NCBI GenBank assembly: GCA_030605835.1
Contig: JAUWHO010000048.1
Span: 107,984-171,983 of the forward strand
Reading direction: 5' to 3'
DNA length: 64,000 nt
Source of the DNA: Candidatus Zixiibacteriota bacterium
GTDB lineage: Bacteria > Zixibacteria > MSB-5A5 > DG-27
Shown here: positions 11,167-38,923 of the stretch, piece by piece
How the letters are laid out: each line of letters begins with the position of its first letter
Position numbering within the stretch: the stretch's first letter is position 1
Notes under the pieces: generated by a model
What the model saw: only the letters and a program-made list of their open reading frames with translations
The model's database searches: none
Told to the model about the DNA's origin: nothing
Made by a program: the position numbers and the translations under genes

Positions 11167-11196
11167 ATTATATCAAAAAGCTTGGGGATTTGTCAA
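11167..11196 (-). promoter_or_regulatory. Near-consensus sigma70 promoter of the cytochrome gene
   Basis: Minus strand TTGACA, 18 nt, TATAAT with extended TG. Confidence 0.6.
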
Positions 11197-11265
11197 GGGA
11201 AAAGGCCTCCCCGAATAAAATCGCTCTCCGCTCCGCGAGAAAGAGAATATAGCTACCAGAAGCAG

Positions 11266-12069: not shown

Positions 12070-12130
12070 TTTCTACCTCCGTGAATTTATGGGTTTCTGA
12101 CTTATGTTCCGCGGTCGGTTATCAGGCAAG

Positions 12131-19297: not shown

Positions 19298-19367
19298 GAG
19301 AATCGCTTTTCTATAGAGCCCAGCTTGGGACAAGCTGGGCTACCTTTCCTGTCACCTGTTCCCTGTT

Positions 19368-21947
19368 TTAGAATCTCCCGGTCATCGAGAATCTCATCTC
19401 GTTACCACGGTTGTTCTCTTTGGAGCTGGGGAGGTAGGAGAAGTCGAAGGCGTAGTTCATGTACTGGAGTCCCACCCCCACGGTGGCGAACTGCAGGGCG
19501 CCGATCTGATCATACAGGTAACCGGCCCTCAAAGCCACGAAGTTGCCATACCAGTACTCCATTCCGCCGTGGACGATGACCTCCTCGATCTCGGTATCGA
19601 AGCGGTCGTTTAAGTCCACCAGGAGTTTGGTGAACTCCGCAATAAAGGTCAGGCGATTGAAGGGGCTGTCCACCAGACGGTAAGCCCCGGAGGCCACGAA
19701 ATTCCGAGGCAGGGGGTCTGACTGGTCGGCGTCAATGTAAGCGACGTTGGGGCCGATGTTGGTCACCACCGCCGCCAGCGCCAAACGTCTGAATGGGTTG
19801 TAGAGCAAACCGCCGTCGATGGCAAAGGAGGTCGCGATCCCCTCGCCTCTTTCCGCTCCCGCTCCGGCCTCGGCGAGATGGCTGTAAATGTACTTGGTGG
19901 TGAGCCCCATGGCGAGGTTCTCGGTTATGCTGGTGCCGTAAGACAGCCCCAGGGCGTATTCGAAGGACTCGAAAGTCCCGAGGTAGTTCCCGACCTCGTC
20001 GGTGCGTTGTTGGCTTCCGTAAGAGACGAAGGTGAGGCTGGCACCCAGGGTGCCGATGTTCTTGAAGTTCTGGACATAGGAGAGATACTCGTAATAGACA
20101 TCGCTTGCCAGCGCCGGAACCAGATTGGTGTGCATCAGGGTGAGCTCCCTTCTGGCGTGTGCCAGAACCACTACCCTCTTTTCGGTGGCAAACCAGATCT
20201 CCCCGTCCTTTTCGATGATCGATCTGGTGGGGGTGCGCTCTAAGTTCTGGTGATAGTAACGTCCCCACCTTTTGCCGTCGTGTTTGATGGTCCCGTACTC
20301 GGTCCCCACCAGAATCTCCCCGCCGACCCTCTCGAGGTCGTAAACTTGAGCTCCGGCGGTATTGGCATAAACGTAGAGCTGCTCTCCAGTCTGGAGAGGG
20401 TTGTCGTCGATTTTGTTATAGGAGGCGATCAGACCTGCCAACCTTAGGGCCCGCTCCGGCTTCTTAGTGCCGACGAATTTTTGGGCCACCTCCAGGAGAC
20501 TTTCTCCTCCCTCGGCGGTGTATAGTCTGTAACCGTGCCGTCTCCAACTGCTCTTGTGGAAACTCCAGACGCCTGAGTCGGTGCCGATCCAGAGATTCTC
20601 CTTCTTGTCCAAAGCCAGGGAGGTCACCTCCCCGGAGAAGGCGATACTGTATGGGATCTTTATCTGCATCCCGGGATAGAGGGAATCTGAATCGGCCAGT
20701 TCGTTATATTCGGAAATTAAGGCCGCAGCTGCCGCTATCTCGGCACCGTGCTTCGAACCCAAGAGACGGGAGGCGATCTTCTCGAAGTCGTCCCCCACCC
20801 GCACCGGATAGTTGAGGTGAGCCTTAATCTCCCTGCCGTCGAAATAGGCAATGCCGGCCTTGGTCCCGATCCACAGAGCCCTTTTCTTATGAAGTCTGAG
20901 CGCGGTGATGTAGTTATCCGGCAGCTCTTCTTCGGTGGTGTAGAAGGTCCACTTGCTTCCGTCAAATCGGGCCAGACCGGAATCGGTCCCCAGCCAGAGC
21001 GACTTTTTCTCCCCGGCGACGATGGCGGTAACATTGTTGGAGGGAAGACTGTCGCTCTCCACCGTAAAGGTCTTCCACCTTCTGCGGTCGTATCTGAAAA
21101 GCCCCTCGGGGGTGCCGAGGTAGAGGTAGTCTTTGAAATCGGAGGCCAGGCAATTGATCCGGGGGGGCAAGACCAGGTTGAAGGGGATTTTTACCTCCTC
21201 CGGCATCTGGGTGGTGACCGGCTTGTCGACTCCGAAGGCCAACTTGTCCAGCTCTAGGCTGCTGAGGGAATCGTCGGCGAGGTAATCCTCCACCGATCTT
21301 TTGAGAAGTTGAAGCTCATCGGCATCCAAGGTCAGCTCTCCCCAGGACCTCTTGAGGCTCTCCAGCCCCATCTTTATCTCTTCTAAATAGTAGTAGTTCT
21401 CCGGCACCTTCTCTAAAATCCTCTGTTCTAGAAGCTCCAGGTCCTCGAAGGGGATGGTGGTGTTCGCCTCCGCGATCTTTTTCGCCATATTCTGACGGGC
21501 CTCGCGGTCGTCGGTGCGGGTGAAGCGCTCGGCGATGTCCTCCAGCGATTCTCCGCTCCTGACCGCGTAGTCCTCCCCGAAAAGCCACCTCTCCCCGTTC
21601 CAGCGAGCCAGGCGCTCTCCGACCAAAGCCCAGATATCATATCTGAGGTAGTTATTCTCGGGGAGATTGTTCTTCAAGATAGCGATCTGGCGGATCTCTC
21701 CTTCAGCTTCCAGCTTGAACTCCAAGAAGGCTGGGGACAAAGGATAGCGGCCCAGACCGGCGGGGTTCCAGTGGGTGGCAGTGGCGTCGTCGGAGATGGC
21801 GGCGAAGCACTCCCCCATGCCTCCAGCCCTGGCCCCGGGAGCGATCATAAGGAAAATCACCCCGGTCTGGCTCACCTGACATAGCCCCCCCGGCGATAAG
21901 CCGACTAAAAAGAGCAGAGCCAACGTCGATATGATTGTTGCTTTCAT
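19368..21947 (-). CDS. PorV-family barrel interrupted by a beta-propeller with three LysM-like domains
   Basis: PorV N-terminus FLMIAPGARAGGMG...HWNPAGL; Reg_prop-type blades (LPSNNVTAI..LWLGT..GLARFDG); LysM-like YAVRSGESL, YPVRVGDDF..LYPGMQIKIP, YTAEGGESL..LQTGEQL; barrel resumes at ELTLMH and ends MRFSMTGRF. Confidence 0.8.
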   Translation of the reverse strand: MKATIISTLALLFLVGLSPGGLCQVSQTGVIFLMIAPGARAGGMGECFAAISDDATATHWNPAGLGRYPLSPAFLEFKLEAEGEIRQIAILKNNLPENNYLRYDIWALVGERLARWNGERWLFGEDYAVRSGESLEDIAERFTRTDDREARQNMAKKIAEANTTIPFEDLELLEQRILEKVPENYYYLEEIKMGLESLKRSWGELTLDADELQLLKRSVEDYLADDSLSSLELDKLAFGVDKPVTTQMPEEVKIPFNLVLPPRINCLASDFKDYLYLGTPEGLFRYDRRRWKTFTVESDSLPSNNVTAIVAGEKKSLWLGTDSGLARFDGSKWTFYTTEEELPDNYITALRLHKKRALWIGTKAGIAYFDGREIKAHLNYPVRVGDDFEKIASRLLGSKHGAEIAAAAALISEYNELADSDSLYPGMQIKIPYSIAFSGEVTSLALDKKENLWIGTDSGVWSFHKSSWRRHGYRLYTAEGGESLLEVAQKFVGTKKPERALRLAGLIASYNKIDDNPLQTGEQLYVYANTAGAQVYDLERVGGEILVGTEYGTIKHDGKRWGRYYHQNLERTPTRSIIEKDGEIWFATEKRVVVLAHARRELTLMHTNLVPALASDVYYEYLSYVQNFKNIGTLGASLTFVSYGSQQRTDEVGNYLGTFESFEYALGLSYGTSITENLAMGLTTKYIYSHLAEAGAGAERGEGIATSFAIDGGLLYNPFRRLALAAVVTNIGPNVAYIDADQSDPLPRNFVASGAYRLVDSPFNRLTFIAEFTKLLVDLNDRFDTEIEEVIVHGGMEYWYGNFVALRAGYLYDQIGALQFATVGVGLQYMNYAFDFSYLPSSKENNRGNEMRFSMTGRF

Positions 21948-22160
21948 CTTAGACCTCCAAATTGGAAAAGAACCTCTTTTACCAAAACCCTGTTTCTCTG
22001 AACTTAAACGCCCTTTTCAGCGAAGGTGGGCTACGTCCCCGACCTTAGCTGTCTTCCAACATCCCGTTCACGCTGTAACTCTTATATTCACCTCTGATCA
22101 AACTGTTTCAAGATCCGTTTTTATCGAAATTATCGGTCAAGTTTCCAGGGATTCAAGAGA

Positions 22161-25100
22161 TCACTTCATCTTGACTGCCTTTTGGAATTGTTCGACAACC
22201 TTCTTTCCGGAACCACCGCCACTCGATTGATTAACCTCGACGGTAATTTTGTATATGTAAACCCCGTTGGCGATTTGGTCTCCCTCCTGATCGCTGCCGT
22301 TCCACTCTCGGAAATTGTAGCCGAAGCTGGTGGGTAGATTCTGAAAACTCTTTATTCTCCGACCCGCGAGGGTGAAGATCTCTAAGCTCACCCGGTCGAC
22401 CTCGTAGCTGTTCAACCGGTACTGAAAGACGGTGGAGGTCTTGAAGGGGTTGGGGTAGTTCATGACCTCCTCCAGACGGAACTCCTCCGCGGAGATGACG
22501 CTCAAAAGGGCAGTTGCGACCGAGGAGTTATTAAAATTGTCCCAGGCTTTGAGGCTGACCTCATACTCTCCCGGAAAAACCTCCGGCAGCTGATATTCCA
22601 CCCTCCCCCTGCGGAAGCTTCCCACCTCGTATTGGAACTGGTCGGTCAAATCCAACTCAAAAGAGACTTCCCCCTCCAGAGTCAAGGCCAGATGGTGTCC
22701 CAGCTGGCCGGTGATATTCACCCCGCTGGTGTCGTAGATCACCGCCTGCAGGGTGAACTGAGGCGGCACCACCTGTCGTCCACCGCTTCCCTCCTCTCCC
22801 TGAAAGTAAAGACTTATCCCCGGCCCGGTGGAATCGACCACCTCAGGGGTGGTGGCTCCCAGGAATAACCCCTCCCGGTAACCGTGACCATCTATGGAGC
22901 CGTCCTCGACATAGGCGATAATCTTGGCGGTGGAGTCCCCGTAGGTTATGTCTTTGGGGACGATGAATTTGGCTACGAACTCACCGCTCATAACCTCCAC
23001 CGGGCCCCGAAAGATGTTGGAGCCGGGGAGGTAGTAATAATAGTTGTTGGCGGCGCCGTAAGCGCGGGGCTTCTTGGCGTCGTAAACCGTTATCCAGGCG
23101 GTGCCGTTGAAGTCTGAGACCAACTGGTCGTCGAGATCGTGGACTTCCCCCTCGACCGAGATTACGCTCAAAGCCTCCAGGGTGTCCGGTGATACCGAGG
23201 TGATATGAACCTTCAAGTGTGGTTGCAACAGCCTCAGGGCGGGGTCACCGAAGAGGACGTATTTGCGGTCGTTGGAGGAGGGGGCCCGCAGCAGTTTGGC
23301 AGTGCAGAGGGCGGCGGTTATCGAGAGGGTGTCGGCGCCGAAGAGTTGGTCGAATACCTCGTAGTTAAGATAGGCGTTGCCCGGAGCCGACACCAGCCGG
23401 GTGGCGGCGATAGTGGCGATGGCGCCGTTTTCTGGCATCCTGACAAAGTCCTCGGCCATCCCCTCTCCCCCGGGCTCATCCCACTTGGCGATGCTGCAGG
23501 AGGCCCCGTAAACCAACGGGAGATGTCCCCGGGTCTCCAGAATCGGGAGATCCTGGGTTCTCCGGAGAACGTGCTCGTGTGCCCAGACCTCCTGGCTGCC
23601 GTGGCCGATGTAGTCGATGAGCAAGGTACCGGAGTTGAAGCTGTTTATGACCGCCTCCCGAGCTTGTGGTTTCTCCCCGCCCTCGCCGAAGGGATATTCC
23701 ATAAGGTAGATCTTGGAGACGTAGAAGCCTTTGGGGGTGTATATTTCTGCCAGGTCCTCGGCCTGGGAGGTGTGAAACCACTCTGAGGAGCTTCTGGCGC
23801 TGTGCTGGTCATCGGCGACAACCGTGATGGTATTGCGCCAGTCCCCCGGAGGGGAGTTGGTCTCGTAATCGATGATCTTGTCGATGACATGCCCCAGCGC
23901 CTGCGAGCTCTGTACCGGAATGCGGGAGATGAACATGTCCACGGTGCCGTTGGAGTCTGCATCCGGCTTACCGTAATCTCCGAAATAGATGTAGTTCTCA
24001 TCGGCGGCGCTGTTGTCGGCTATGAACGGGGGGAGGTAGTTTCTGGCATTTGTCCCCTCGCTGTTCCGATAATCGTAAGTGCCATCCCCCACGAGACAGG
24101 CGTAAGCCGGAGATGGCTTGCTCCAGTTCTGAAAAGTGTATTTCAGGAAGTGACGGATCGCCAGGGGGTCGAAGACTCCCCAGGAGAACTGATTGTACAC
24201 CTCGGAGATCTTGACGAGTCTCACCGCCAAGCTCGAGAACTGCTGCCTGTGATTGGCCAACCTTTGAGCTTCCTGGTAGAAATCGTCGTAAACGATCAAG
24301 AGCATATCGTAACGATTGGTGGTGGCGCGCAGGTTATCCGGGAGGTAGGAGGTGATGGAGATCGGCTTTTTGTGGGCGGCGGCCTCCCCCAGGAAATAGA
24401 GCTTAGGTCTTTCAGAGTCACCCCGGTCTTGAAAGATGAGGCCGGAACCGTCGATCTCCACACCGGAGATGACCGAGCAGTTCAAGGGGTCGGTCACTTC
24501 TAAGAGGACGAAATCACTGCCCGAATATCCTCCGATACGATACTCGAAGTTCTCGGAGCCGATCGGAGCCTGGAAGAGAAACTGGTTCTCGTAAAGCGAG
24601 AGCAGACGGGAGTATTCAACCTCGTAGTAATTTAGATAAACCTCCTTGGAGAATGAAAAATCGAACTGGTTCATTCCCTCCAGGAGGTCGTTGGTCTCCG
24701 CGGTGGTTTTGTTGTAGCTCTGCGAGATGACCGAAGCCCAACTGCCATTCACTCTGATGTCGCAGCTTCCACTTTTGGTCACCACCTTCACCAATCCCGT
24801 TTCGCTGGTGAGAACTCCATTCAAGGTGGAATACTGGCTGAAATCCTCCCCCTTCAACCAATACCAGTTGAAATAATCTCCCCCGCCGCCGAGAGTCTTA
24901 TCGTTCTCAACGTGCAGCCGGGAGATGGTTTTGGTCCTCACCACCGGATTAGGATCTGTGGGTGCCCCCGAGATTGTAGCCATCCTCTTTGGGGGAGAAG
25001 CGAACTGGGTCGTCCCGAAGGTCAACCAGTAAGAGTTGGTGTCGCTGTAATGATGGCGGTAATATGTGAACTCTTGGCCCTGCTGGTCGTATTCCCATCC

Positions 25101-26168
25101 CTCGGTGCCGATCCCATAAAAGAGGAGATAATCGCCGGAGTCGAATGAGCCGTCCTCTTCACCGACAACGTGTATCGGTATCTCCTTGAGTTCGGGAGCC
25201 GCAATTGAATTGTCAGTCGGCAGCTCTCTCCCGCCTGCGGTGAAAACTCTGAAGCTCCTGGGATCAAGGCTGTTAGTGTTAACCCCCGCTTGCGACAGGG
25301 TGAGGTTGTCAATTTTATATGTTGCTTGGTCCTTCAACTTCATCCGATACCACACCCCGGCGGAGTCGAAGGCGCTGCCGAGACTCATTTGAGCTTTCTG
25401 CAGCTCTCCGCCAAGCCTTTTCCAGTTCCTGGCCTCCGGATAGTTTATGATCGTCTGCCTGTAAAGGTGCCGAAATAGATCCCTTTCCGGGGGCAGCGTA
25501 AAACCTCCCTTTGGAGCTTTACCGACGAAGGAGACGAAGACGGTGATTTCTCGATAGAATCTTACCTTCCCGCTGATCGGATTGTACCTCACCGGCGAAA
25601 GCACCAGTTCCAAGACTCTGAAATCGCGGATATGTTCCCTCGGACCCTTGCGAGCGATTCTCTTCGGTAGAAATTCGTCCTTTGAGTATCGGGGCGACAA
25701 CTTCAGAGGTGCCGCAGGCGGTATCTCCTCCACGAACAGTTTTTGCGGGAAGGGAGCAATGTTAAAGGGGCCGTATTCCGAGAAGGTGCCGGTTTTCACT
25801 TCGAATCGGGCCGTCTTTCCCGGAGGGACGGCAATGAAGATGTTTTTTCTGGGCAATCGGGGAGCGCCCAGATCTCTGCCGAGATAGCTGTTCTCTATCC
25901 CCAGAAGGTCGAACTCTAGTCCTCCATCGCTCGTTTTTCGATGCTTGAGCTCTCCCGGTTTGTAGAGGAGGGTGAGGCCCTCTTCGTCGGAGCTGAGTAT
26001 GTGGACATCCCCGTCAAACAGCCGGACGGTGGCGTGAAGGCCGGGGCAGGAGATAACCGCCAGAAAAAGAAACGAGGCTATTGCCGCTCCCGCCGAAGTC
26101 CTGCTGTCCAAAAACAACTGGATTGGCCTTCGGCTGTTGGGGAGATGTCGCAGATTGCTAAAGGGCAT
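22161..26168 (-). CDS. porU: T9SS sortase PorU (gingipain C25 family) with propeptide and FlgD-type CTD
   Basis: YLLFYG, YACLVGDGTYDY, ISRIPV, catalytic DYIGHG and ASCS, YVLFGDPAL, KAWDNFNNS, C-terminal NYPNPF..WNG.DQEG..ANGVYIY; directly upstream of porV. Confidence 0.85.
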   Translation of the reverse strand: MPFSNLRHLPNSRRPIQLFLDSRTSAGAAIASFLFLAVISCPGLHATVRLFDGDVHILSSDEEGLTLLYKPGELKHRKTSDGGLEFDLLGIENSYLGRDLGAPRLPRKNIFIAVPPGKTARFEVKTGTFSEYGPFNIAPFPQKLFVEEIPPAAPLKLSPRYSKDEFLPKRIARKGPREHIRDFRVLELVLSPVRYNPISGKVRFYREITVFVSFVGKAPKGGFTLPPERDLFRHLYRQTIINYPEARNWKRLGGELQKAQMSLGSAFDSAGVWYRMKLKDQATYKIDNLTLSQAGVNTNSLDPRSFRVFTAGGRELPTDNSIAAPELKEIPIHVVGEEDGSFDSGDYLLFYGIGTEGWEYDQQGQEFTYYRHHYSDTNSYWLTFGTTQFASPPKRMATISGAPTDPNPVVRTKTISRLHVENDKTLGGGGDYFNWYWLKGEDFSQYSTLNGVLTSETGLVKVVTKSGSCDIRVNGSWASVISQSYNKTTAETNDLLEGMNQFDFSFSKEVYLNYYEVEYSRLLSLYENQFLFQAPIGSENFEYRIGGYSGSDFVLLEVTDPLNCSVISGVEIDGSGLIFQDRGDSERPKLYFLGEAAAHKKPISITSYLPDNLRATTNRYDMLLIVYDDFYQEAQRLANHRQQFSSLAVRLVKISEVYNQFSWGVFDPLAIRHFLKYTFQNWSKPSPAYACLVGDGTYDYRNSEGTNARNYLPPFIADNSAADENYIYFGDYGKPDADSNGTVDMFISRIPVQSSQALGHVIDKIIDYETNSPPGDWRNTITVVADDQHSARSSSEWFHTSQAEDLAEIYTPKGFYVSKIYLMEYPFGEGGEKPQAREAVINSFNSGTLLIDYIGHGSQEVWAHEHVLRRTQDLPILETRGHLPLVYGASCSIAKWDEPGGEGMAEDFVRMPENGAIATIAATRLVSAPGNAYLNYEVFDQLFGADTLSITAALCTAKLLRAPSSNDRKYVLFGDPALRLLQPHLKVHITSVSPDTLEALSVISVEGEVHDLDDQLVSDFNGTAWITVYDAKKPRAYGAANNYYYYLPGSNIFRGPVEVMSGEFVAKFIVPKDITYGDSTAKIIAYVEDGSIDGHGYREGLFLGATTPEVVDSTGPGISLYFQGEEGSGGRQVVPPQFTLQAVIYDTSGVNITGQLGHHLALTLEGEVSFELDLTDQFQYEVGSFRRGRVEYQLPEVFPGEYEVSLKAWDNFNNSSVATALLSVISAEEFRLEEVMNYPNPFKTSTVFQYRLNSYEVDRVSLEIFTLAGRRIKSFQNLPTSFGYNFREWNGSDQEGDQIANGVYIYKITVEVNQSSGGGSGKKVVEQFQKAVKMK

Positions 26169-26335
26169 CGCCAGAACCAAAACCTACTTTATCGAATCCT
26201 GTTCCCGCCTGATGAGGTCCTCTGACCTCGGCGGCTTCAAAACCCTTTAGCTTTCGGCGATAAGCAACACCTCGAGAAAATTGTCTCCAGGCCTTTCTTC
26301 GTCTACTTTTCAACCCAGAGCAGAATTCAGGGAAC

Positions 26336-26704: not shown

Positions 26705-27559
26705 ATGTTAAAGGTCAAATTCTCGAAGATAGAGTCTGTAGGTAACGATTACCTTTACATCGATGATCTCCGTCAAGACTTAAAGGGGAAAGAGCTGCCG
26801 AGATTGGCGATGGAGATGTGCGACCGCCAGCGGGGCGTCGGCGCCGACGGTCTTATTCTCTTCAAGATTGTGGGCCGGGGCAACTATTCTGTCAGGATTT
26901 TCAACCCCGACGGAAGCGAGACCGGAATGTGCGGGAACGGCATCCGGGGAGCAGTCGCCTTCGCTTACAATGTCGGTTACACCAAAAGGAAATCGGTCCG
27001 GGTGGACACCAAAAACGTTACCACCCTATCCGAGATTCTGGAGGTGGGGGGGGATGGCAAGCCTTACACCATCAGGACTGATTTGGGATCGCCAGACCTT
27101 AAGAAGAAGTCGCTTCCGATGACGGGCGAGGGGGAGACCCACATCGGCAAAGCGGTGACGATTGGTGGGAGAGAAGTGGAGCTCTCGGCCCTCTCCATCG
27201 GTAACCCTCATGCGGTCCTCTTCGTGGATGATTTTGACTTCGACTGGCGGAAGTTAGGGCACGAGATTCAAGATAGTGGCCATTTTCCCGAAGGGGTCAA
27301 CGTCAGTTTCGCTCTGGTCAAAAACAGAGGCCGATTGGCCCTGAAGGTCTTGGAGCGAGGCGCCGGGGCCACCCTGGCCTGCGCCAGCGGGGCGGCGGCG
27401 GCGGTGACCAGTGGGGCGATGCAGGAGAAGACCTCGCGCCGGGTTGTGGTTGAGCTTCCCGGGGGGGAGCTTGCGGTCGACTGGGAGAACTCCGACGGCC
27501 ATATTCAGATAACAGGTCAATCGCGGCCGGTTTGCCGCGGTGAGTTCTTCTCCACCTGA
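26705..27559 (+). CDS. dapF: Diaminopimelate epimerase
   Basis: GNDY, GVGADG, NPDGSE..MCGNG, GNPHAV, GVNV, ERGAGATLACASG with both catalytic Cys. Confidence 0.9.
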   Translation: MLKVKFSKIESVGNDYLYIDDLRQDLKGKELPRLAMEMCDRQRGVGADGLILFKIVGRGNYSVRIFNPDGSETGMCGNGIRGAVAFAYNVGYTKRKSVRVDTKNVTTLSEILEVGGDGKPYTIRTDLGSPDLKKKSLPMTGEGETHIGKAVTIGGREVELSALSIGNPHAVLFVDDFDFDWRKLGHEIQDSGHFPEGVNVSFALVKNRGRLALKVLERGAGATLACASGAAAAVTSGAMQEKTSRRVVVELPGGELAVDWENSDGHIQITGQSRPVCRGEFFST

Positions 27560-27598
27560 GGCAAACAGAACCGTGATCAGTTGTGGATTGAACCGCGG

Positions 27599-29296
27599 AT
27601 GAGTTCCTTCAAAAAGGAAGTGGTTTCTCTTCTTTCCGAGACCACCGAAGTCCCACCGGAGGAGATCGCCTCCAGACTGGAGTATCCTCCCGACGGGAGC
27701 TTCGGGGATTTGGCCTTCCCCTGCCATCTGCTCAGTAAGAGGTTGAAAAAACCCCCTCAGGCGATCGCCTCCGAACTGGCGGAGAGATTGTCACCTCGAG
27801 CCTCAATTGACAGGATAGCTGCTACCGGACCCTATCTCAATTTCTTCGCAGACCCGGCCATATTAGCAACTGAGGTCGTCAGCTCGATAATCTCTCAAAG
27901 AGAGGATTTCGGGTTCTCCGATGAAGGCCGGGGGAAAACCATCGTGATCGATTTCTCCTCCCCTAATATCGCCAAACCTTTCGGGGTCGGACATCTGCGC
28001 ACCACGGTTTTAGGGAACGGCCTCTATCACATCTTCTCCAAGCTCGGCTATAAGCTGGTTCGGGTCAACCATCTGGGGGATTGGGGGACGCAGTTCGGGA
28101 AGCTCATCACCGCCTTCAAGCTCTGGGGAGATGAGGCTCGTTTGGAGAAAGATCCCATCGGGGAGCTTTTCGATCTCTACGTTGAGTTTCACCGCCGGGC
28201 CGAGACCGACTCCAGCCTGGAGGAAAAAGCTCGCGAGGAGTTCAGGAAATTGGAGAAGGGGGAGACCGAGACCTCCGAGTTCTGGAGAAGGTTCAAAGAC
28301 TTGAGCCTGCAGGATTTCGACCGCATCTACCGCCTCCTGGGGATCGAATTCGATTCCTACGCCGGCGAGAGCTTCTACAACCCTTACATAGAGAAGACTA
28401 TTGAGGCTTTGAAGTCTGCGGGCCTGACCAGGGTGAGCGAGGATGCCCTGATCGTCGATCTGGAGAAATACGGAATGCCACCCTGCCTCTTGAAGAAAAG
28501 GGATGAGGCCACTCTTTACGCCACCAGAGACATCGCCGCCGCCATCTACCGCTACGAGACCTATAAATTTCACAAAAACCTCTACGTCGTGGGCTCAGCC
28601 CAGAGGCTTCATTTCCAGCAGGTGTTCAAGGTGTTGGAACTTATGGGCTATCCCTGGAGTAAAGATTGTCACCACATAGAGTTGGGGTGGATAAAGTTCG
28701 AGAAAGGGGCGATGTCCACCAGAAAGGGGAACATCGTCTTCTTGGAGGATGTTCTCAGTAAAAGCGTGGAGTTGGTGAAAAGCATTATCGAGGAGAAAAA
28801 TCCAACGCTTGAGGATCAGGACCGGGTTGCCAGGCAGGTTGGAGTCGGAGCGGTCGTCTTCTGGGATCTGTCTGCTCGCCGCAATAAGGACATAAATTTC
28901 TCCTGGGAGGAGGCCTTGAACTTCGAGGGTCAGACCGGCCCCTATCTGCAATATACCCACGCCCGTCTGGCCTCGGTTATGAGGCGTTATGGCGAACCTC
29001 TACCTCCCCATCCGGATCTATCCTTGTTGTCGGGAGCCCAGGAGCAGAAGGTGATAAAGCTCCTCTCCCGTTTTCCCGAACATCTCCAGAGGGCAGCTTT
29101 CGATTACGAACCGTATCATCTGGTCTCCTATCTTCTGGAGTTAGCCTCTGCTTTCAACAGTTTTTACCAGTCGCAGAGGATCCTGTGCGAGGACTTAAAT
29201 CTGCGGTCGGCGCGGGTATCTTTGGCCGAAGCCACCAGGACAGTCCTGAAAGAGGGACTGAGATTGCTGGGGATGGAATCTCCGGAGAGCATGTGA
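27599..29296 (+). CDS. argS: Arginine--tRNA ligase
   Basis: FGDLA, TGPYLNF, DFSSPNIAKPFGVGHLR, NHLGDWGTQFG, MSTRKG, GPYLQYTHAR, ends PESM. Confidence 0.95.
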   Translation: MSSFKKEVVSLLSETTEVPPEEIASRLEYPPDGSFGDLAFPCHLLSKRLKKPPQAIASELAERLSPRASIDRIAATGPYLNFFADPAILATEVVSSIISQREDFGFSDEGRGKTIVIDFSSPNIAKPFGVGHLRTTVLGNGLYHIFSKLGYKLVRVNHLGDWGTQFGKLITAFKLWGDEARLEKDPIGELFDLYVEFHRRAETDSSLEEKAREEFRKLEKGETETSEFWRRFKDLSLQDFDRIYRLLGIEFDSYAGESFYNPYIEKTIEALKSAGLTRVSEDALIVDLEKYGMPPCLLKKRDEATLYATRDIAAAIYRYETYKFHKNLYVVGSAQRLHFQQVFKVLELMGYPWSKDCHHIELGWIKFEKGAMSTRKGNIVFLEDVLSKSVELVKSIIEEKNPTLEDQDRVARQVGVGAVVFWDLSARRNKDINFSWEEALNFEGQTGPYLQYTHARLASVMRRYGEPLPPHPDLSLLSGAQEQKVIKLLSRFPEHLQRAAFDYEPYHLVSYLLELASAFNSFYQSQRILCEDLNLRSARVSLAEATRTVLKEGLRLLGMESPESM

Positions 29297-29440: not shown

Positions 29441-30811
29441 ATGGACAAGATTGTAAAGAGGAGCCGAAGACTAAAAGGGGAGGTGGTGCTGCCCGGGGAT
29501 CGCTCCATCTCGCATCAGGCGGCAATTCTGGCTGCAATTTCGGAGGGTGAGAGTCTTATCCGCAATTTCTCGGATAGTCTGGAATGTAGAAAGACCCTGG
29601 ATTGCCTCCAGCTTCTGGGAGTCCCTTGCGAGCTTGAGGGAAGGGATCTGAAAATAGCTGGTGTCGGTCGCGACGGTTTGACCGCACCATCACAGCCCCT
29701 GGATGCCGGCAACTCCGACACCACCATGTATCTGTTGGCGGCGATTCTGGCCCCTCAACCTTTTAGCTGCGAGATTGAGGGGGGATCCTATCTCCAGCGG
29801 CGCTCCCCGGAGGAGGTCATAGACCCCTTGATTCAGATGGGAGCGAACATCGTCCACCCCGAGGGCGCCGGGGCTCCCCTGAATATCACCGGGGGACCTC
29901 TCATCGGAATCCACTATTCTCTTCCCTTTCCCTCGGCACTCACCAAGTCGGCGATCCTGCTTGCGGGTCTCTACGCCGAGGGAGAGACCACGGTGATGGA
30001 GAAGATCCCCACCAGAGACCATACCGAGCGACTGCTGAAGTGTTTCGGGGTGGAGCTGGGAACGGTCTCGCTGGATCAGCGGGATAAAAGGGCCGAAAGC
30101 CGCGACGATTTGAGCTACCGCCTGCGCAAGGCTCAGTCCATAAATGAGACTGAGTTTAAGGGGATGAACATCGTCATCAGTAAGCCGGATGTTTTAAGCG
30201 GGCGGGAGATCCAAATTCCCAACGACTTTTCTGTTGCCGCCCCCTTCATTGCCGCCGCCACGGTGTTGAAGAATTCCAACGTCAATTTTCCGAATCTCAG
30301 CCTGAACCCTTCCAGGGCCGGCTTTCTGGAACTGCTCAAGCGCATGGGCGGCAACGTTACCATTCGGGAGCGCCGGGAGGTATGTGAGGAGCCGTTGGCT
30401 CATGTCTCCATCCGAACCGCGGGACTGAAATCGCGGCGGGTTGGCGGAAGTCTGATTGCGAACCTCTTAGACGAGATTCCGGTTCTGGCGGTGATGGCAA
30501 CCCAGGCGGAGGGAACCACCGTCATCCGCGGTGCTCAGGGATTGAGGACCAAAGAGACCGACCGCATCAAGGCCATATATGTCAACCTGCGTAAGATGGG
30601 TGCCAGGGTTGGTGAGCTGGAAGATGGGCTGGTGATTGAGGGCAAGGCGAGCCTGGAGGGAGCTGAGATTGATACCGCCGGAGATCACCTGATTGCCATG
30701 GCCTTCGCCATTGCGGGTTTGGTGGCCCAGGGGGAGACCGTGATACGCGATGCCGAGTGCGTCGAAAAATCCTTCCCCGGATTCTGGGATAATCTTGAAA
30801 ACCTGATCTGA
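29441..30811 (+). CDS. aroA-like: AroA (EPSP synthase)-like protein with degenerate active site
   Basis: Class II AroA scaffold (PGD.SISH, RDHTE, DEIP, KETDRI, DH.IAM, KSFP), but reads PGDRSISHQ, GNSDTTMY, SALTKS and DHLIAM at conserved positions. Confidence 0.85.
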   Translation: MDKIVKRSRRLKGEVVLPGDRSISHQAAILAAISEGESLIRNFSDSLECRKTLDCLQLLGVPCELEGRDLKIAGVGRDGLTAPSQPLDAGNSDTTMYLLAAILAPQPFSCEIEGGSYLQRRSPEEVIDPLIQMGANIVHPEGAGAPLNITGGPLIGIHYSLPFPSALTKSAILLAGLYAEGETTVMEKIPTRDHTERLLKCFGVELGTVSLDQRDKRAESRDDLSYRLRKAQSINETEFKGMNIVISKPDVLSGREIQIPNDFSVAAPFIAAATVLKNSNVNFPNLSLNPSRAGFLELLKRMGGNVTIRERREVCEEPLAHVSIRTAGLKSRRVGGSLIANLLDEIPVLAVMATQAEGTTVIRGAQGLRTKETDRIKAIYVNLRKMGARVGELEDGLVIEGKASLEGAEIDTAGDHLIAMAFAIAGLVAQGETVIRDAECVEKSFPGFWDNLENLI

Positions 30812-30838: not shown

Positions 30839-31219
30839 TTGTTGCCGAAATCGAAAGTTGAAAAGGGGAGAAAGGGAGAGCTTATCGCTTCTCGCTTTCT
30901 GTCATCCAAAGGATTCGAAATCATCGCCCGCAACTTCAGAATCGATCACAAGGAAGTCGACATAATCGCCCGGGAGGGGGAGTTCCTGGTATTTGTCGAG
31001 GTGAAATTCGGGAGGGTTGGCTCCTTCGGGGAGCCGGTGGAGTGGGTAGGTCCCAGGAAGAAGAAAAACCTCATCGAAGCCGCGAAACTCTACCTCTCGA
31101 AAAACGAGCTTCACGATCTCCCGGTGCGCTTCGATGTAGTGGCCATCTCTCAAAGGGGTGGAAAGACCGAGATCGCCCACTTCCCGGGAGCCTTCGTGGA
31201 GGAGTGGACCCTTTCTTGA
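30839..31219 (+). CDS. yraN: YraN (UPF0102) family protein
   Basis: G..GE.IA..FL..KGF.II.RNF, EVDII, LVFVEVK, RFDVVAI. Confidence 0.88.
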   Translation: MLPKSKVEKGRKGELIASRFLSSKGFEIIARNFRIDHKEVDIIAREGEFLVFVEVKFGRVGSFGEPVEWVGPRKKKNLIEAAKLYLSKNELHDLPVRFDVVAISQRGGKTEIAHFPGAFVEEWTLS

Positions 31220-31865: not shown

Positions 31866-32384
31866 TTACTTAATTAACATCATCCTCTTTGTCTGAGTGA
31901 AATCTCCGGCGGTTAGCTTGTAAAAATAGATGCCGGAAGCCTTATCAGGTGCGTACCAGAGGAATGAATAGTAACCCGGCTGCTGAAACCCATCGACGCA
32001 GGTCTCCACCTTTTGTCCGAGGATATTGTGGACATCAAGCGTTACTCGAGACGATACGGGTAGAGCGTACTCGATGACAGTCGTCGAGTTGAAGGGATTG
32101 GGATAGTTCTGACTCAACTCGAACCGCAATGGCAGAAGCTCCCCTTCACCAGCGAATTTCAGAAGTGGATTGAACACCTGCATAAATCCGGCTTTATGGG
32201 TATATTTGCCATCCGAAGCATTTACCACTGCCACATGAGTCATAACTGCGTAAGTACTAACTCCGTCAGCAGACGCCGCTCCGCCGCTGGCTCCGATCAT
32301 CACCCACTTGTGTTGATAGGTTTGGGCATTTGATACGCAGGCTAAAATTAAGAACAGGGCAACGGTAATTGAGTTTCTTTTCAT
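31866..32384 (-). CDS. Small T9SS type-A CTD protein (mature part about 60 aa plus CTD)
   Basis: Signal peptide, short IGASGG...HKAGF segment, then FELSQNYPNPFN...SGIYFYKLTAGDFTQTKRMMLIK. Confidence 0.8.
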   Translation of the reverse strand: MKRNSITVALFLILACVSNAQTYQHKWVMIGASGGAASADGVSTYAVMTHVAVVNASDGKYTHKAGFMQVFNPLLKFAGEGELLPLRFELSQNYPNPFNSTTVIEYALPVSSRVTLDVHNILGQKVETCVDGFQQPGYYSFLWYAPDKASGIYFYKLTAGDFTQTKRMMLIK

Positions 32385-32476
32385 GTTACTTCCCTTAGTT
32401 TTTTTCAAAGTTTTTTTGAATTAACTTCGATCCGTGACAGTACCATTGGCATCGTTAAAGTGAAGATTTTTGATAA

Positions 32477-35274: not shown

Positions 35275-36333
35275 ATGAGGCGCAAAAGAAAACGAGTGGT
35301 CAGAATCGGCGGGATAAAAATCGGTGGGAATCACCCCGTAGCGGTGCAGTCGATGACCACCACTGATACCAGAGATATAACTGCCACCTTACGACAGATA
35401 CGCCGACTCCGAAAAGCCGGTTGCGAGATTGTCCGCCTGGCAGTTCCCGACCGCCAAGCGGCGGTCTCTTTAGGAGAGATAAAGAAGAGGACCTCTTTGC
35501 CGGTTGTTGCCGATATCCACTTCGACTATAGGCTGGCGCTGGAGTCGTTAAAGGCGGGGGTTGACAAGCTTCGGATCAATCCCGGCAACATCGGAGCGAC
35601 CTGGAAGGTGAAGGAGGTGGTGAAGGCGGCTGCCGATCGGGAAGTTCCTATAAGGATTGGAGCCAACAGCGGATCGCTCCCCAAAGACCTCTTGAAGAAG
35701 TACAAGCACGCTACTGCGGAAGCTCTGGTGGAGGCCACTTTCAGGCAGGTGGAGCTATTAGACTCCCTGAACTTCAACGCCATCGTTCTATCTTTGAAAT
35801 CCTCTTCCGTCCCGGTGACAATTGAGGCTTACCGTCTGATCTCCAGGAAAACCGACTATCCCTTACATCTGGGAATCACCGAAGCCGGGCCCCTTCTGAC
35901 GGGAAGCGTGAGATCCGCAGTTGGCCTGGGTGCCCTTCTGGTGGAGGGAATTGGCGACACCTTGAGGGTCTCTCTGACCGGAGACCCGGTAGAGGAGGTG
36001 AAAGTCGGCTTTGAGATTTTGAAGTCCCTGGATCTGAGACAAAAGGGACCGATTCTGATTTCCTGCCCGATCTGCGGGCGTTGTGAGATAAATTTAGAGA
36101 GACTGGTCAGAAGAGTGGAGAAAAAGATTGCTAAGATAGAGACACCGTTGAAGATTGCGGTGATGGGTTGTGTGGTCAACGGTCCGGGAGAGGCCCGAGA
36201 AGCTGACGTCGGCATCGCCGCTGGCAAGGGGGTTGGCCTTCTCTTCAGAAAGGGGAGAGTTGTCAGAAAACTAAAGGAGGCGGAACTGGAGAGTGCCCTA
36301 TTGCAGGAAATTCACAAAATGACAATGAACTGA
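35275..36333 (+). CDS. ispG: HMBPP synthase (MEP pathway)
   Basis: VQSMT, ADIHFD, RINPGNIG, RIGANSGSL, HLGITEAG, GIGDTLRVSLT, SCPICGRC, MGCVVNGPGE. Confidence 0.95.
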   Translation: MRRKRKRVVRIGGIKIGGNHPVAVQSMTTTDTRDITATLRQIRRLRKAGCEIVRLAVPDRQAAVSLGEIKKRTSLPVVADIHFDYRLALESLKAGVDKLRINPGNIGATWKVKEVVKAAADREVPIRIGANSGSLPKDLLKKYKHATAEALVEATFRQVELLDSLNFNAIVLSLKSSSVPVTIEAYRLISRKTDYPLHLGITEAGPLLTGSVRSAVGLGALLVEGIGDTLRVSLTGDPVEEVKVGFEILKSLDLRQKGPILISCPICGRCEINLERLVRRVEKKIAKIETPLKIAVMGCVVNGPGEAREADVGIAAGKGVGLLFRKGRVVRKLKEAELESALLQEIHKMTMN

Positions 36334-36344: not shown

Positions 36345-37169
36345 TCAAGCCGACCGGACTGAATTCTCAATCTTTTTGACATCGATTATCAATTGCTCTA
36401 ACCGGTCCAAAGGGAGCATACTGTCTTTATCACATAAGGCCCTCTCAACATCCGGATGGGTCTCCACAAACAGGGCATCTACTCCACAGGCCACTGCTGC
36501 CCTCGACATCGGAATCACAAACTGGGGTTGACCTGCGGAGCTGGCTTCTCCACCGCCCGGTAGCTGCAGACTATGGGTGGCGTCGAAGACCACCGGGTAG
36601 CCTAAAGACCGCATTATCAAAAGGGAGCGCATGTCGACGACTAAGTTGTGGTAACCGAAGGTTGTGCCCCTTTCCGTCAGAAGGATGTTTTTGCTTCCGA
36701 AGGACTCGGCCTTTTCGGCAATGAATTTCATATCCTCCGGCGCCAGGAATTGACCTTTCTTGAGGTTTAAGGGTAACCCGGTCTCGGCGGCGGCTTTGAT
36801 CAGATCGGTCTGTCTGCAGAGAAAAGCGGGTATCTGGAGAGCGTCAACCACCTCCGCGGCGGCACCTACCTCCCCGGGAGTGTGGACGTCAGTCAGCACC
36901 GGAAGCTCAAATTCCCTCTTAACCTTTGATAGGATTTCCAGACCCTTCTTTAGTCCGGGCCCGCTGTAGGAATTGACGCTCAAACGGTTGGCCTTAAGAT
37001 AGGAGGACTTGAAAATGACGGGAAGATTGTGAGTCTCCCCGAGTTTCTTTACCATCTCTGCAGTCCTTAAGGTAATCTCCTCAGTCTCGATCACGCAGGG
37101 ACCGGCTATCAAAACCAGCGGGTTGCCGCCGCCAATTCTTACATCACCGATTTGTACGACTCTTGTCAA
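36345..37169 (-). CDS. kdsA: KDO8P synthase
   Basis: IAGPCVIE, KSSY.KANR, QIPAFLCRQTDL, KKGQFLAP, ERG..FGY, FDATHS, ETHP, D..SMLPL. Confidence 0.95.
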   Translation of the reverse strand: MTRVVQIGDVRIGGGNPLVLIAGPCVIETEEITLRTAEMVKKLGETHNLPVIFKSSYLKANRLSVNSYSGPGLKKGLEILSKVKREFELPVLTDVHTPGEVGAAAEVVDALQIPAFLCRQTDLIKAAAETGLPLNLKKGQFLAPEDMKFIAEKAESFGSKNILLTERGTTFGYHNLVVDMRSLLIMRSLGYPVVFDATHSLQLPGGGEASSAGQPQFVIPMSRAAVACGVDALFVETHPDVERALCDKDSMLPLDRLEQLIIDVKKIENSVRSA

Positions 37170-37234
37170 ATCTTCTTCAACTTAGTGAGAAGAGGCCGGA
37201 GCTCTTCGGTTCGTTTTTCTTGGCAGGCAGGATT

Positions 37235-38923
37235 TCAAACGGTGTCCTTGGAGCCGGAGGTATGAGAGACGTATACCTCCCCGGCCTCCGTCGGTTCCGT
37301 TCGAGACTGTCTGTATTTCAGGGCAGCTTTTACGAATTCGCGGAAGAGGGGATGAGCTCTGGCTGGACGGGATTTCAACTCCGGGTGAAACTGACTGGCG
37401 ATGAAGAAGGGATGGTCTTTCAGTTCCACAATCTCGACCAACAACCTGTCGGGAGACAGGCCGGAGAGTATCAGTCCCTTCTCTACGAGGTTTTCCCGAT
37501 AATCGTTGTTCAATTCGTAGCGATGGCGGTGTCTCTCCGAGATTTGAGTGTTTCCGTAGATCCGATGAGCCAGACTTCCCTTTTCGATGATGCAAGGATA
37601 AGCACCCAAGCGCATGGTGCCGCCCATCTCGGTGACCTTCTTCTGCTCATCCATTAAGTGTATTACGGGATGAGCGGTTTCGCGATCGAACTCGAAGCTA
37701 TGAGCTTTCTTTAAGCCGCAAACGTTGCGGGCAAACTCAACAGTGGCACACTGCATCCCCAGGCAGATTCCAAGGAACGGGATCTTGTTCTCGCGGAGGT
37801 GACGAACAGCCTCGATTTTCCCTTCAATGCCCCTTTCTCCAAAGCCACCCGGAACCAGGACTCCATCGACGTCGTCAAAGAGCACTGCTGCTCCCTCGGT
37901 TTTGACCTGCTCCGAGGAGATCCACTTTATCTCCACCCTGGTGTCGTTTTCCCCACCGGCGTGAATGAAGGATTCGATGATGCTCTTATATGCATCTTTT
38001 AGATCAACGTATTTGCCGCAAATCGCGATTTTCACATAGTGCTTGGGGTTTTTGATCCGGTTCACGATCTTGCGCCAGAAGCTCAAGTCTAAGTCTTTGC
38101 AGAGAAGCTCTAGATAATGCACCACCAGATTGTCGAGCAGCTCCCCGTGAAAGAGGATAGGCACCTCATAGATGGTCTCGGCGTCGAGGTCCTGGATGAC
38201 CGCCTCGGGAGGCACATTGCAGAACAGAGCTATCTTGTCCTTGGCCGCTTTGGTCAGGGGCCTCCCGGTCCGGCAGACGAGTATATTTGGGGAGATGCCG
38301 ATTTCGCGGAGCTCCTTGACGGAGTGTTGAGTCGGCTTGGTTTTCAGCTCCCCGGCGGATTCGATATAGGGCACCAGAGTCAGGTGGATGTACAGAGTGT
38401 CGTTATCCGCACGTTCCAGGCCCATCTGGCGGATGGCCTCCAGGAAGGGGAGGGATTCGATGTCCCCCACGGTGCCGCCGATCTCGGTTATGACCACGTC
38501 GATCTGGTTATCATTTTCGGCAGCCTTGCGAATACGATTCTTGATCTCATCGGTGATGTGGGGAATGACCTGCACCGTCGCTCCAAGATAATCCCCCCGC
38601 CTCTCACGAGAGATAACGGCTTCGTACACTTGCCCGCTTGTCACGTTGGCGTTCTGATTCAAGTTGACGTCGATGAAACGCTCGTAATGCCCCAAATCGA
38701 GGTCGGTCTCGGCGCCGTCATCCAGAACGAAGACTTCCCCATGTTGAAAGGGGTTCATGGTTCCGGGATCGACATTTATGTAAGGATCGAGCTTCTGCAG
38801 GGTCACCTTGAGACCGCGGCACTTCAAGAGCAAACCCAAGGAGGCGGCCGCAATCCCTTTCCCTAACGAGGAGACGACCCCTCCGGTGATGAAAATATAC
38901 TTTGTATTTCTCTTCGACATCAT
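37235..38923 (-). CDS. pyrG: CTP synthase
   Basis: [59 protein letters not shown]. Confidence 0.97.

What the first reader, a model, noticed from the sequence alone, without database searches (positions are those of the whole stretch)
29441..30811. AroA homologue with a systematically rewritten active site
Seen in the translation, with the first two motifs also read from the DNA: PGDRSISHQA (canonical PGDKSISHRA), GNSDTTMY (GNSGTTMR), SALTKS (SAQVKS), DHLIAM (DHRIAM), RRSP (RRPM). Known, E. coli numbering: K22, R27, G96, R100, Q171 and R386 are near-invariant; R27 binds the shikimate-3-phosphate carboxylate; K22 and R386 bind PEP; even G96A crowds the PEP/glyphosate site. D313, K340, E341, R344, H385, K411 and RDHTE are retained and the ORF is full length. 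Inference: concentrated change at ligand contacts on an intact scaffold points to a new substrate or a ligand-sensing pseudo-enzyme rather than decay. It sits in a dapF-argS-aroA-yraN run with no other aro gene.
Basis: partly seen in the sequence, partly recalled or inferred. Interest (0 to 1): 0.85.

Follow-up and report, generated by a model that had tools for sequence, protein, structure and literature searches.

The report
Dead-site AroA relic kept by selection
This Zixibacteria gene is the only survivor of a deleted aromatic-amino-acid (shikimate) operon: it keeps the full EPSP synthase fold under strong purifying selection but has lost most substrate-binding residues, so it is most likely a repurposed pseudo-enzyme that annotation pipelines still call a working AroA.

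Summary
ORF 29441-30811 (+) encodes a full-length class II EPSP synthase homologue of 456 aa. It passes the Pfam and TIGR01356 cut-offs, and its AF2 model has pLDDT 94.9 and TM 0.90 to Coxiella AroA.

It carries K22R, R27Q, G96D, R100Y, Q171L and R386L (E. coli numbering), and also D49E. Of 79 columns that are at least 90% conserved in 245 canonical relatives, it deviates at 14; the canonical mean is 2.2 and the maximum 9.

Four further assemblies of Ca. Zixiibacteriota (97-99% identical) carry the same changes. dN/dS is 0.09-0.20, the same as the neighbouring argS and dapF, so the gene is neither an artefact nor decaying.

Canonical relatives that share its ~30-aa insertion sit in argS-(aroF)-aroA-aroE-aroK-aroB-aroQ operons, one of them preceded by dapF. 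In the window, and in two deeply diverged sister lineages, argS is followed by the altered aroA alone.

The altered proteins form a clade (79% NJ bootstrap), but each lineage carries different active-site substitutions. That pattern is erosion of the site, not a shared rewritten site.

Best reading: a non-EPSPS relic kept for a non-catalytic or new role. Whether the genome lacks the rest of the pathway was not testable here.

The parts
29441..30811 (+). aroA* : full-length class II EPSP-synthase homologue (456 aa) with an eroded ligand site
   Evidence: AF2 model. dN/dS 0.09-0.20.
29501..29518 (+). Codons R21-Q26 (E. coli K22R ... R27Q) in the PGDRSISHQA motif
   Evidence: DNA read. Canonical K in 143/151 and R in 146/151.
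29582..29584 (+). Codon E48 (E. coli D49 equivalent). Canonical D is 100% conserved. E is shared by all four lineages of the altered clade.
29711..29731 (+). GNSDTTMY loop: D93 (G96D) and Y97 (R100Y). The close relative L030 has GDSETTMY.
29801..29815 (+). R121-S122-P123-E124-E125. R124 (E. coli) is kept. The canonical RPMxR motif has become RSPEE.
29933..29950 (+). SALTKS motif: L167 (Q171L)
30059..30160 (+). ~31-34-aa charged insertion (aa 207-240, helix 223-233, pLDDT 59-74). It is shared with a clade of canonical-site AroA found in argS-linked aro operons.
30683..30700 (+). GDHLIAM motif: H416 kept, L417 (R386L)
27581..29296 (+). argS (arginyl-tRNA synthetase). It is the conserved upstream neighbour of both canonical aro operons and the orphan aroA*.
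26705..27559 (+). dapF (diaminopimelate epimerase). It is also upstream of argS in the canonical locus L111.
30839..31219 (+). yraN-like UPF0102 gene. It occupies the place where aroE-aroK-aroB-aroQ lie in canonical relatives.

Best explanation
aroA* is the positional orthologue of a true EPSP synthase gene and the only survivor of an ancestral Zixibacteria-type operon. That operon ran argS-(tyrA)-aroF-aroA-aroE-(Gate-Gate)-aroK-aroB-aroQ.

**Shown.** In this lineage the other aro genes have been removed from the locus. The protein keeps the complete two-domain EPSPS fold and evolves under purifying selection as strong as its housekeeping neighbours.

**Shown.** It has lost three of the arginines of the substrate cleft (R27, R100, R386) and Q171. 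It has placed an acidic side chain (D, or E in a close relative) where the PEP phosphate sits, at G96.

**Inferred.**
- The cleft goes from strongly cationic to roughly neutral.
- It therefore cannot hold S3P and PEP together, and the protein no longer makes EPSP.
- It is retained as a pseudo-enzyme, doing a non-catalytic job such as binding, scaffolding or regulation that does not need the PEP site.
- The half of the cleft formed by K169, T191/H194, D344-E345, K371-E372 and R375 (query numbering) stays conserved in the query. A residual ability to bind one phosphorylated or carboxylated ligand is therefore possible.
For: **Descent.**
- Pfam EPSP_synthase E = 1.4e-95. TIGR01356 scores 335 bits against a cut-off of 287, while MurA models score only about 70 bits.
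- The best solved relatives are class II EPSPS.
- The fold is intact.

**Positional orthology and operon loss.**
- L031 is argS-tyrA-aroF-aroA-aroE-aroK-aroB-aroQ.
- L111 is aminotransferase-dapF-MFS-argS-aroA-aroE-aroK-aroB-aroQ.
- L112 and L113 are trp genes-argS-aroF-aroA-aroE-Gate-Gate-aroK-aroB-aroQ.
- The altered proteins sit as dapF-argS-aroA*-yraN (window), aminotransferase-argS-aroA* (L001) and argS-aroA*-Gate-Gate (L003).
- tblastn of the L031 Aro and TyrA proteins against the window hits only aroA* and kdsA.

**Site erosion.**
- The query deviates at 14 of 79 conserved columns.
- Substitutions are lineage-specific within a clade that has 79% bootstrap support.
- In L030, 8 of 11 amino-acid differences fall in aa 88-128, the G96 and R124 loops, with no matching excess of synonymous changes.

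**Selection.**
- dN/dS for aroA* is 0.13, 0.20 and 0.09, against 0.10 and 0.11 for argS and 0.18 and 0.08 for dapF.
- The AroA/ArgRS identity ratio is close to that of canonical pairs.
- Among close relatives, AroA* is 97.8% identical and ArgRS 96.8%.

**Residue roles.** These come from established structures (E. coli EPSPS with S3P and glyphosate, PDB 1G6S, Schoenbrunn et al. 2001, from my own knowledge) and from the contact lists quoted in PMC10305266.
Against: - No activity was measured.
- I could not scan the rest of the genome. A complete shikimate pathway elsewhere, with or without a second aroA, is not excluded.
- K22R is conservative, and I recall (not checked here) that it is tolerated in plant EPSPS.
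- R124, D313, K340, E341, R344 and H385 are all kept in the query, so a residual or altered catalytic activity is possible.
- The query and L001 share R100Y, P125S and Q171L across a deep split. This could mean a constrained new pocket rather than drift, although 4 shared states among about 25 deviating columns is no more than the 46% background identity predicts.
- No partner or ligand for a non-catalytic role has been identified.
- The tree is neighbour-joining only, and deeper nodes are unresolved (12-20% support).
Confidence: 0.5

Rival explanations
1. Neofunctionalised enzyme. The cleft was remodelled to act on a different, less anionic substrate, for example as a hydrolase or as a transferase that does not use PEP. 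It would use the retained D313, E341, K340, R344 and H385.
For: - The catalytic acid/base pair and half of the cleft are retained in the query and in L001.
- The query and L001 share R100Y, P125S and Q171L.
- An acidic residue at position 96 is kept as D or E among close relatives.
- Purifying selection is strong.
- From memory, not verified here (one search found nothing): a G96S variant of E. coli EPSPS was reported to lose synthase activity and gain EPSP hydrolase activity. L003 and L032 carry Ser at this position.
Against: - Sister lineages do not share a common new site. L003 has K22T, S23P, R124L, K340Q and E341K. L004 has 26 deviations, including K340G, E341R and H385P.
- No conserved new motif appears in the clade.
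- No partner enzymes or transporters are conserved next to it. Only the ancestral argS linkage is conserved.
- The former PEP-site loops are the fastest-changing part of the protein among close relatives.
Confidence: 0.22
2. Still the organism's working EPSP synthase. It would have an unusual, compensated active site, with the other shikimate genes moved elsewhere in the genome.
For: - It scores above the TIGR01356 equivalog cut-off.
- Selection is as strong as on housekeeping genes.
- R124, D313, K340, E341, R344 and H385 are retained.
- The mildest clade member, L032, keeps all charged ligand residues and changes only G96S, T97A, S169T and A170S, so the clade may have started as active variants.
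Against: - The residues changed (R27, G96, R100, Q171, R386) are at least 96% conserved among the 150 best class II representatives and among 245 canonical relatives.
- G96D puts a carboxylate into the PEP-phosphate site. Even G96A lowers PEP affinity (established knowledge, PDB 1MI4, listed).
- The whole aro operon was deleted around the gene in three lineages.
- No aro gene lies in the 64 kb window.
Confidence: 0.13
3. A non-functional leftover (young pseudogene), or an assembly or binning artefact.
For: The loss of invariant residues and the loss of the surrounding operon would fit a gene on its way out.
Against: - The frame is intact at 456 aa in the window, L002 and L005, and in deep relatives L001, L003 and L032 whose ArgRS is only about 55% identical where it could be measured (L001).
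- dN/dS is 0.09-0.20.
- The same sequence turns up in five independent assemblies.
Confidence: 0.04

Closest known systems
Class II EPSP synthase (AroA), e.g. Coxiella burnetii AroA (PDB 3SLH/3ROI) and Bacillus halodurans AroA (3RMT)
   Same: - About 40-45% identity over the full length.
- Same two-domain fold (TM 0.90).
- Same motifs: RDHTE, LDE(I/L)P, KETDR, GDH.
- R124, D313, K340, E341, R344 and H385 are retained.
   Different: - K22R, R27Q, D49E, G96D, R100Y, Q171L and R386L, and RPMxR has become RSPEE.
- A ~31-aa insertion at aa 207-240.
- No shikimate genes nearby.
Canonical-site AroA of the same insertion-bearing clade, in argS-linked aro operons (L031, L111/P0006, L112/P0054, L029/P0003, L028/P0004)
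   Same: - They share the insertion.
- 41-49% identity.
- In L031, L111 and L112/L113 the same upstream argS (and dapF or the aminotransferase in L111); L028 and L029 are instead linked to aroE (L029 also to aroF).
- Gate-Gate genes are shared between L029/L112 and the altered L003/L032 loci.
   Different: These proteins keep every canonical ligand residue and are followed by aroE, aroK, aroB and aroQ. The window's gene has lost both.
Sister altered AroA* lineages (L001/P0002, L003/P0005, L032, and perhaps L004/P0025)
   Same: - They form a clade with the query (79% bootstrap).
- MDK N-terminus, the insertion, D48E, non-Gly at G96 and loss of D115.
- Orphan position after argS in L001 and L003.
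   Different: - Each has its own set of active-site substitutions: 10, 8, 4 and 14 of the 21 key positions.
- L032 is mild.
- The placement of L004 is unresolved, and its upstream gene is a cyclophilin.
MurA (UDP-GlcNAc enolpyruvyl transferase), the other main branch of the enolpyruvyl-transferase fold; NikO was not tested for lack of a model
   Same: Same superfamily fold. Weak matches of about 70 bits and TM 0.73.
   Different: The scores are far below the MurA cut-offs (70 against 393 bits), and the protein groups inside class II AroA.
Enzyme-derived pseudo-enzymes kept for regulation, e.g. HisZ, a catalytically dead HisRS paralogue that regulates HisG (conceptual analogue, from my own knowledge)
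   Same: Intact fold of an active enzyme family, loss of catalytic or ligand residues, and maintained purifying selection.
   Different: HisZ has a known partner and arose by duplication alongside an active copy. Here no partner is known, and the gene is the positional orthologue left after its pathway was deleted.

Membership tests
EPSP synthase family by descent (PF00275 / TIGR01356 aroA) | Sequence match above the curated cut-offs | tested here: met
   PF00275 scores 320.9 bits (cut-off 22.8). TIGR01356 scores 335.5 bits (cut-off 287.25).
EPSP synthase family by descent (PF00275 / TIGR01356 aroA) | Two-domain inside-out alpha/beta barrel fold | tested here: met
   The AF2 model has pLDDT 94.9 and pTM 0.92. 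Foldseek gives TM 0.90 and rmsd 2.0 to 3SLH.
Functional EPSP synthase (EC 2.5.1.19) | S3P and PEP contact residues K22, R27, G96 (or A), Q171 and R386, plus the second-shell R100 | tested here: not met
   The query has R, Q, D, L, L and Y at these positions. Canonical residues are at least 94% conserved in the 150 representatives and at least 90% in 245 relatives.
Functional EPSP synthase (EC 2.5.1.19) | Catalytic and binding residues R124, D313, K340, E341, R344 and H385 | tested here: met
   All are retained in the query. They are not all retained in sisters L003 and L004.
Functional EPSP synthase (EC 2.5.1.19) | [quoted passage not shown] | tested here: inconclusive
   None is present in the 64 kb window or at the ancestral operon position. 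The rest of the genome could not be searched.
Functional EPSP synthase (EC 2.5.1.19) | EPSP formation from S3P and PEP; complementation of an aroA mutant | not testable with these tools
   Needs an enzyme assay or a genetics experiment.
MurA (UDP-GlcNAc 1-carboxyvinyltransferase) | Match to the MurA equivalog models | tested here: not met
   TIGR01072 scores 69.7 bits against a cut-off of 392.7. NF006873 scores 73.5 against 297.
Pseudo-enzyme (operational definition) | Homologue of an active enzyme that lacks residues required for catalysis or substrate binding | tested here: met
Pseudo-enzyme (operational definition) | Maintained by purifying selection (not a pseudogene) | tested here: met
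   dN/dS is 0.09-0.20, equal to argS and dapF. The reading frame is intact across lineages whose ArgRS is about 55% identical.
Pseudo-enzyme (operational definition) | Demonstrated lack of the ancestral activity, and a defined non-catalytic role | not testable with these tools
   Needs biochemistry and partner or ligand identification.

The most novel reading that the evidence does not exclude
A clade of EPSP-synthase-derived pseudo-enzymes. After Zixibacteria lineages deleted their argS-linked shikimate operon, the AroA scaffold alone was kept for hundreds of millions of years of divergence, because it carries a second, non-catalytic function that does not need the PEP site. That function could be ligand sensing or a protein partnership. 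As far as I could find, this would be the first described pseudo-enzyme of the enolpyruvyl-transferase fold.
Probability: 0.45. Interest if true: 0.72.

Novelty: new variant of a known kind. Interest (0 to 1): 0.6.

Why it matters
1. **Annotation.** Pipelines name this protein 3-phosphoshikimate 1-carboxyvinyltransferase; NCBI already does so for P0151. Metabolic reconstructions and glyphosate-sensitivity surveys would then count a shikimate step that probably does not exist. The EPSPS class schemes have only an 'unclassified' bin for such proteins.

2. **Evolution.** This is a clean natural experiment. A whole operon was deleted with one gene spared, and that gene's active site erodes differently in each lineage while the scaffold stays under housekeeping-level constraint. 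It implies that AroA had, or acquired, a second function worth keeping, which can be tested directly.

3. **Ecology.** If the pathway is really gone, these Zixibacteria are aromatic-amino-acid auxotrophs. That fits the secreted T9SS peptidases in the same window.

Tried and rejected
- **Full-length search for homologous proteins.** It timed out three times. A middle fragment found nothing. The N-terminal fragment gave one more Zixibacteria copy and five canonical partial sequences.
- **Exact look-up of the window protein.** It found no contig. Relatives were reached through cluster representatives instead.
- **First ML-style tree attempt.** I replaced it with Kimura-corrected neighbour-joining and 300 bootstraps. 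Deep nodes are unresolved, and the placement of L004/P0025 is unreliable.
- **First count of the insertion.** It was an alignment artefact: canonical clade members were scored as lacking the insertion. This was corrected.
- **Regulatory RNA or a clear promoter or terminator around the gene.** No Rfam hit was found. The promoter scan found only weak consensus matches, no more than in shuffled sequence.
- **Literature.** I found no paper on EPSPS pseudo-enzymes, on the Zixibacteria shikimate pathway or auxotrophy, on the source MAGs, or on 'EPSP hydrolase'.
- **MurA/NikO-type identity.** MurA-type identity was rejected on scores; no NikO model was available.
- **DAHP synthase in the window.** Rejected: the ORF is KdsA, next to pyrG and kdsB.
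- **A shared new motif in the altered clade.** None was found beyond D48E, T97A (3 of 4 lineages), P277K and W449.
Full report
**1. The observation**

ORF 29441..30811 on the + strand is a 456-aa protein with an ATG start. It matches Pfam EPSP_synthase (E = 1.4e-95). It also matches the NCBIfam aroA equivalog TIGR01356 at 335.5 bits, above the cut-off of 287.25. MurA models reach only about 70 bits.

The best solved relatives are class II EPSP synthases: B. halodurans 3RMT, Coxiella 3ROI/3SLH, S. pneumoniae 1RF4 and CP4. Each alignment is split in two by an insertion at query residues 207-240.

The first motif is also readable in the DNA.

In E. coli numbering the changes are K22R, R27Q, G96D, R100Y, Q171L and R386L, and RPM has become RSP. 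R124, D313, E314, K340, E341, R344 and H385 are kept.

Among the 150 best cluster representatives, each canonical residue is present in 141-148 sequences. I then took 245 canonical class II relatives and the 79 columns that are at least 90% conserved in them. The query deviates at 14 of these columns. Canonical sequences deviate at a mean of 2.2 and a maximum of 9.

The extra deviations, in query numbering, are D48E, G101A, D115G, R125E, I343L and E367G. D48 is 100% D in the canonical set.

'K411 retained' carries no weight. That column is I, V or T in about 90% of class II proteins.

**2. The sequence is real and under selection**

The window belongs to Candidatus Zixiibacteriota. Four other assemblies carry the same gene:
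- L005, from MAG K_1_bin.48 (JBHIBM010000052.1), 98% identical.
- L002, from GCA_030601945.1, 99% identical.
- L030, a JGI metagenome contig, 97% identical and cut at aa 380.
- P0151, an NCBI partial sequence, 99% identical.

All of them keep the substitutions.

| Gene | dN/dS against these relatives (Nei-Gojobori) |
|---|---|
| aroA* | 0.13, 0.20, 0.09 |
| argS | 0.10, 0.11 |
| dapF | 0.18, 0.08 |

Between the window and L005, the protein is 97.8% identical and ArgRS is 96.8%.

Over deep divergence, the AroA/ArgRS identity ratio is 0.78-0.87 for pairs that involve the altered proteins. It is 0.83-0.95 for canonical pairs. The scaffold is therefore only slightly accelerated.

An AlphaFold2 model built on a 72-sequence alignment has mean pLDDT 94.9. 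It superposes on liganded Coxiella AroA with TM 0.90. Only the insertion has lower confidence, with pLDDT 59-74 and a helix at 223-233.

**3. Relatives and context**

A search of 1.84 billion cluster representatives and a metagenome scan found a group of class II AroA proteins that share the insertion.

Most members keep every canonical residue and lie in shikimate operons:
- L031: argS-tyrA-aroF-aroA-aroE-aroK-aroB-aroQ.
- L111: aminotransferase-dapF-MFS-argS-aroA-aroE-aroK-aroB-aroQ.
- L112 and L113: trpD/C/F/B/A-argS-aroF-aroA-aroE-Gate-Gate-aroK-aroB-aroQ.
- L029: aroF-aroA-aroE-Gate-Gate-aroK.
- L028 and L110: aroA-aroE.

The altered proteins sit differently:
- Window: dapF-argS-aroA*-yraN.
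- L001 (P0002): aminotransferase-argS-aroA*.
- L003 (P0005): argS-aroA*-Gate-Gate.
- L032: aroA(mild)-Gate.

The gaps between argS and aroA* are 144, 16 and 51 bp, which leaves no room for gene remnants.

tblastn of the L031 TyrA, AroF, AroE, AroK, AroB and AroQ proteins, and of the L029 Gate proteins, against the whole window hits only aroA* and kdsA. Pfam and NCBIfam annotation of the other large ORFs shows no aro gene.

aroA* is therefore the positional orthologue and the sole survivor of an argS-linked aro operon.

**4. Pattern of change**

In a neighbour-joining tree with Kimura distances and 300 bootstraps:
- The query group, L001, L003 and L032 form a clade with 79% support.
- The query plus L001 has 92% support.
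- L003 plus L032 has 100% support.

Within this clade the active-site changes differ by lineage:

| Lineage | Changes (E. coli numbering) |
|---|---|
| L001 | K22N, N94S, G96P, T97A, R100Y, Q171L, H385D |
| L003 | K22T, S23P, G96S, T97A, R124L, K340Q, E341K |
| L032 | Only G96S, T97A, S169T and A170S; keeps all charged ligand residues |

The derived state all four share at a canonical-conserved column is D48E; one search lists a few other shared residues at less conserved columns. A non-Gly residue at G96 and loss of D115 are also common to all four, though with different residues. No new conserved motif appears.

The query and L001 share R100Y, P125S and Q171L. That is about 4 agreements among roughly 25 deviating columns, which is no more than the 46% background identity predicts.

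In L030, 8 of the 11 amino-acid differences from the window fall in residues 88-128, the G96 and R124 loops. They include N94D and D96E. Binomial p is about 2e-6. Only 4 of 20 synonymous differences lie in the same region. I chose this region after seeing the data, so the p-value is indicative only.

Together this is the signature of relaxed constraint on a former active site inside a protein that is otherwise tightly constrained.

**5. Mechanism**

*Shown:*
- Descent from aroA.
- Deletion of the surrounding operon.
- An intact fold.
- Purifying selection.
- Loss of R27, R100, Q171 and R386.
- Gain of an acidic residue at the G96 position.

*Inferred, from the known E. coli EPSPS-S3P-glyphosate complex (1G6S, my own knowledge) and the contact lists quoted in PMC10305266:*
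- The cleft loses three arginines and gains two acidic residues (D93 and E125). It goes from strongly cationic to about neutral.
- It cannot hold S3P and PEP together, so EPSP synthesis is very unlikely.

I estimate about 0.8 that the protein is not a working EPSPS.

The most likely reading, at about 0.5, is a pseudo-enzyme kept for a non-catalytic role. The rivals are:
- A repurposed enzyme, about 0.2.
- A compensated, still-working EPSPS with the pathway genes elsewhere, about 0.13.
- A dying gene or an artefact, about 0.04, which is contradicted.

**6. Comparison with what is known**

By descent and fold the protein is a class II AroA. It fails the ligand-residue test for a functional EPSPS. 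MurA membership is excluded on scores.

The EPSPS class I-IV scheme has only an 'unclassified' bin for such proteins. I found no report of an EPSPS-derived pseudo-enzyme, but the library does not hold every journal.

I rate it a new variant of a known kind.

**7. Limits**
- I could not search the rest of the genome for shikimate or aromatic-amino-acid genes or for a second aroA. This is the decisive missing test.
- The altered clade rests on only five lineages.
- The tree is distance-based.
- The model coordinates could not be inspected for pocket geometry.

Noticed in passing
window 30059-30160 (aa 207-240); also L028, L029, L031, L111, L112: A ~30-aa charged insertion with a conserved D..L..R(R/K)(L/M)(K/R)K-like helix marks a whole clade of class II AroA, including fully canonical enzymes. 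No solved EPSPS has it. Its role is unknown.
   Followed up: partly
L030 5398-6537 compared with window 29441-30580: Eight of the 11 amino-acid differences between two 97%-identical copies cluster in aa 88-128, the former PEP-site loops. GNSDTTMY becomes GDSETTMY and RRSP becomes RRSA. Synonymous changes show no matching cluster. This points to local relaxation or diversifying selection.
   Followed up: partly
L029 3077-4041; L112 10366-11208; L003 1756-2492; L032 1533-1988: A pair of small membrane proteins with the PF07670 'Gate' (nucleoside recognition) domain sits inside the aro operon, between aroE and aroK, in this lineage. The pair survives next to the altered aroA* in L003 and L032. 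Its function in an aro operon is unexplained.
   Followed up: no
window 14-1018 (+): A TrpB2-type 'TrpB-like PLP enzyme' (NF009057, 470 bits) is cut by the window start. No other trp gene lies nearby. In the canonical relative L112, a full trp operon lies directly upstream of argS.
   Followed up: partly
window 36345-39684 (-): A kdsA-pyrG-kdsB cluster. The DAHP_synth_1-family ORF is KDO8P synthase (NF003543, 382 bits), not an aro gene. ispG/gcpE lies at 35275-36333. A gcpE gene also lies near the canonical aroA in L028.
   Followed up: yes
window 16067-26180 (-), 31866-32408 (-), 47955-49508 (-), 53577-55589 (+): Several type IX secretion cargo proteins carry Por_Secre_tail domains. They include a 1338-aa C25 (gingipain-family) peptidase and an 858-aa protein with a PorV-like domain plus LysM and propeller repeats. 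An M1-like aminopeptidase lies at 55699-58629. This suggests a proteolytic, amino-acid-scavenging lifestyle.
   Followed up: no
window 2553-7343 (+): Two paralogous type I phosphodiesterase / nucleotide pyrophosphatase genes (577 and 555 aa) flank a GT4 glycosyltransferase, downstream of a Wza-like polysaccharide export gene (1659-2474).
   Followed up: no
window 9632-14164 (-): A multihaem cytochrome with a PKD domain (480 aa), a DUF4412 protein, and a 676-aa HdrD-like protein with CCG domains and 4Fe-4S clusters lie together. This may be an extracellular or membrane electron-transfer module.
   Followed up: no
L004 283-1677 (P0025): This is the most eroded AroA-like protein found, with 26 of 79 conserved columns changed, including K340G, E341R, H385P and R386Q. 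It has the insertion and is full length. It lies downstream of a cyclophilin rather than argS. Its placement in the tree is unresolved, so it may be an independent case.
   Followed up: partly
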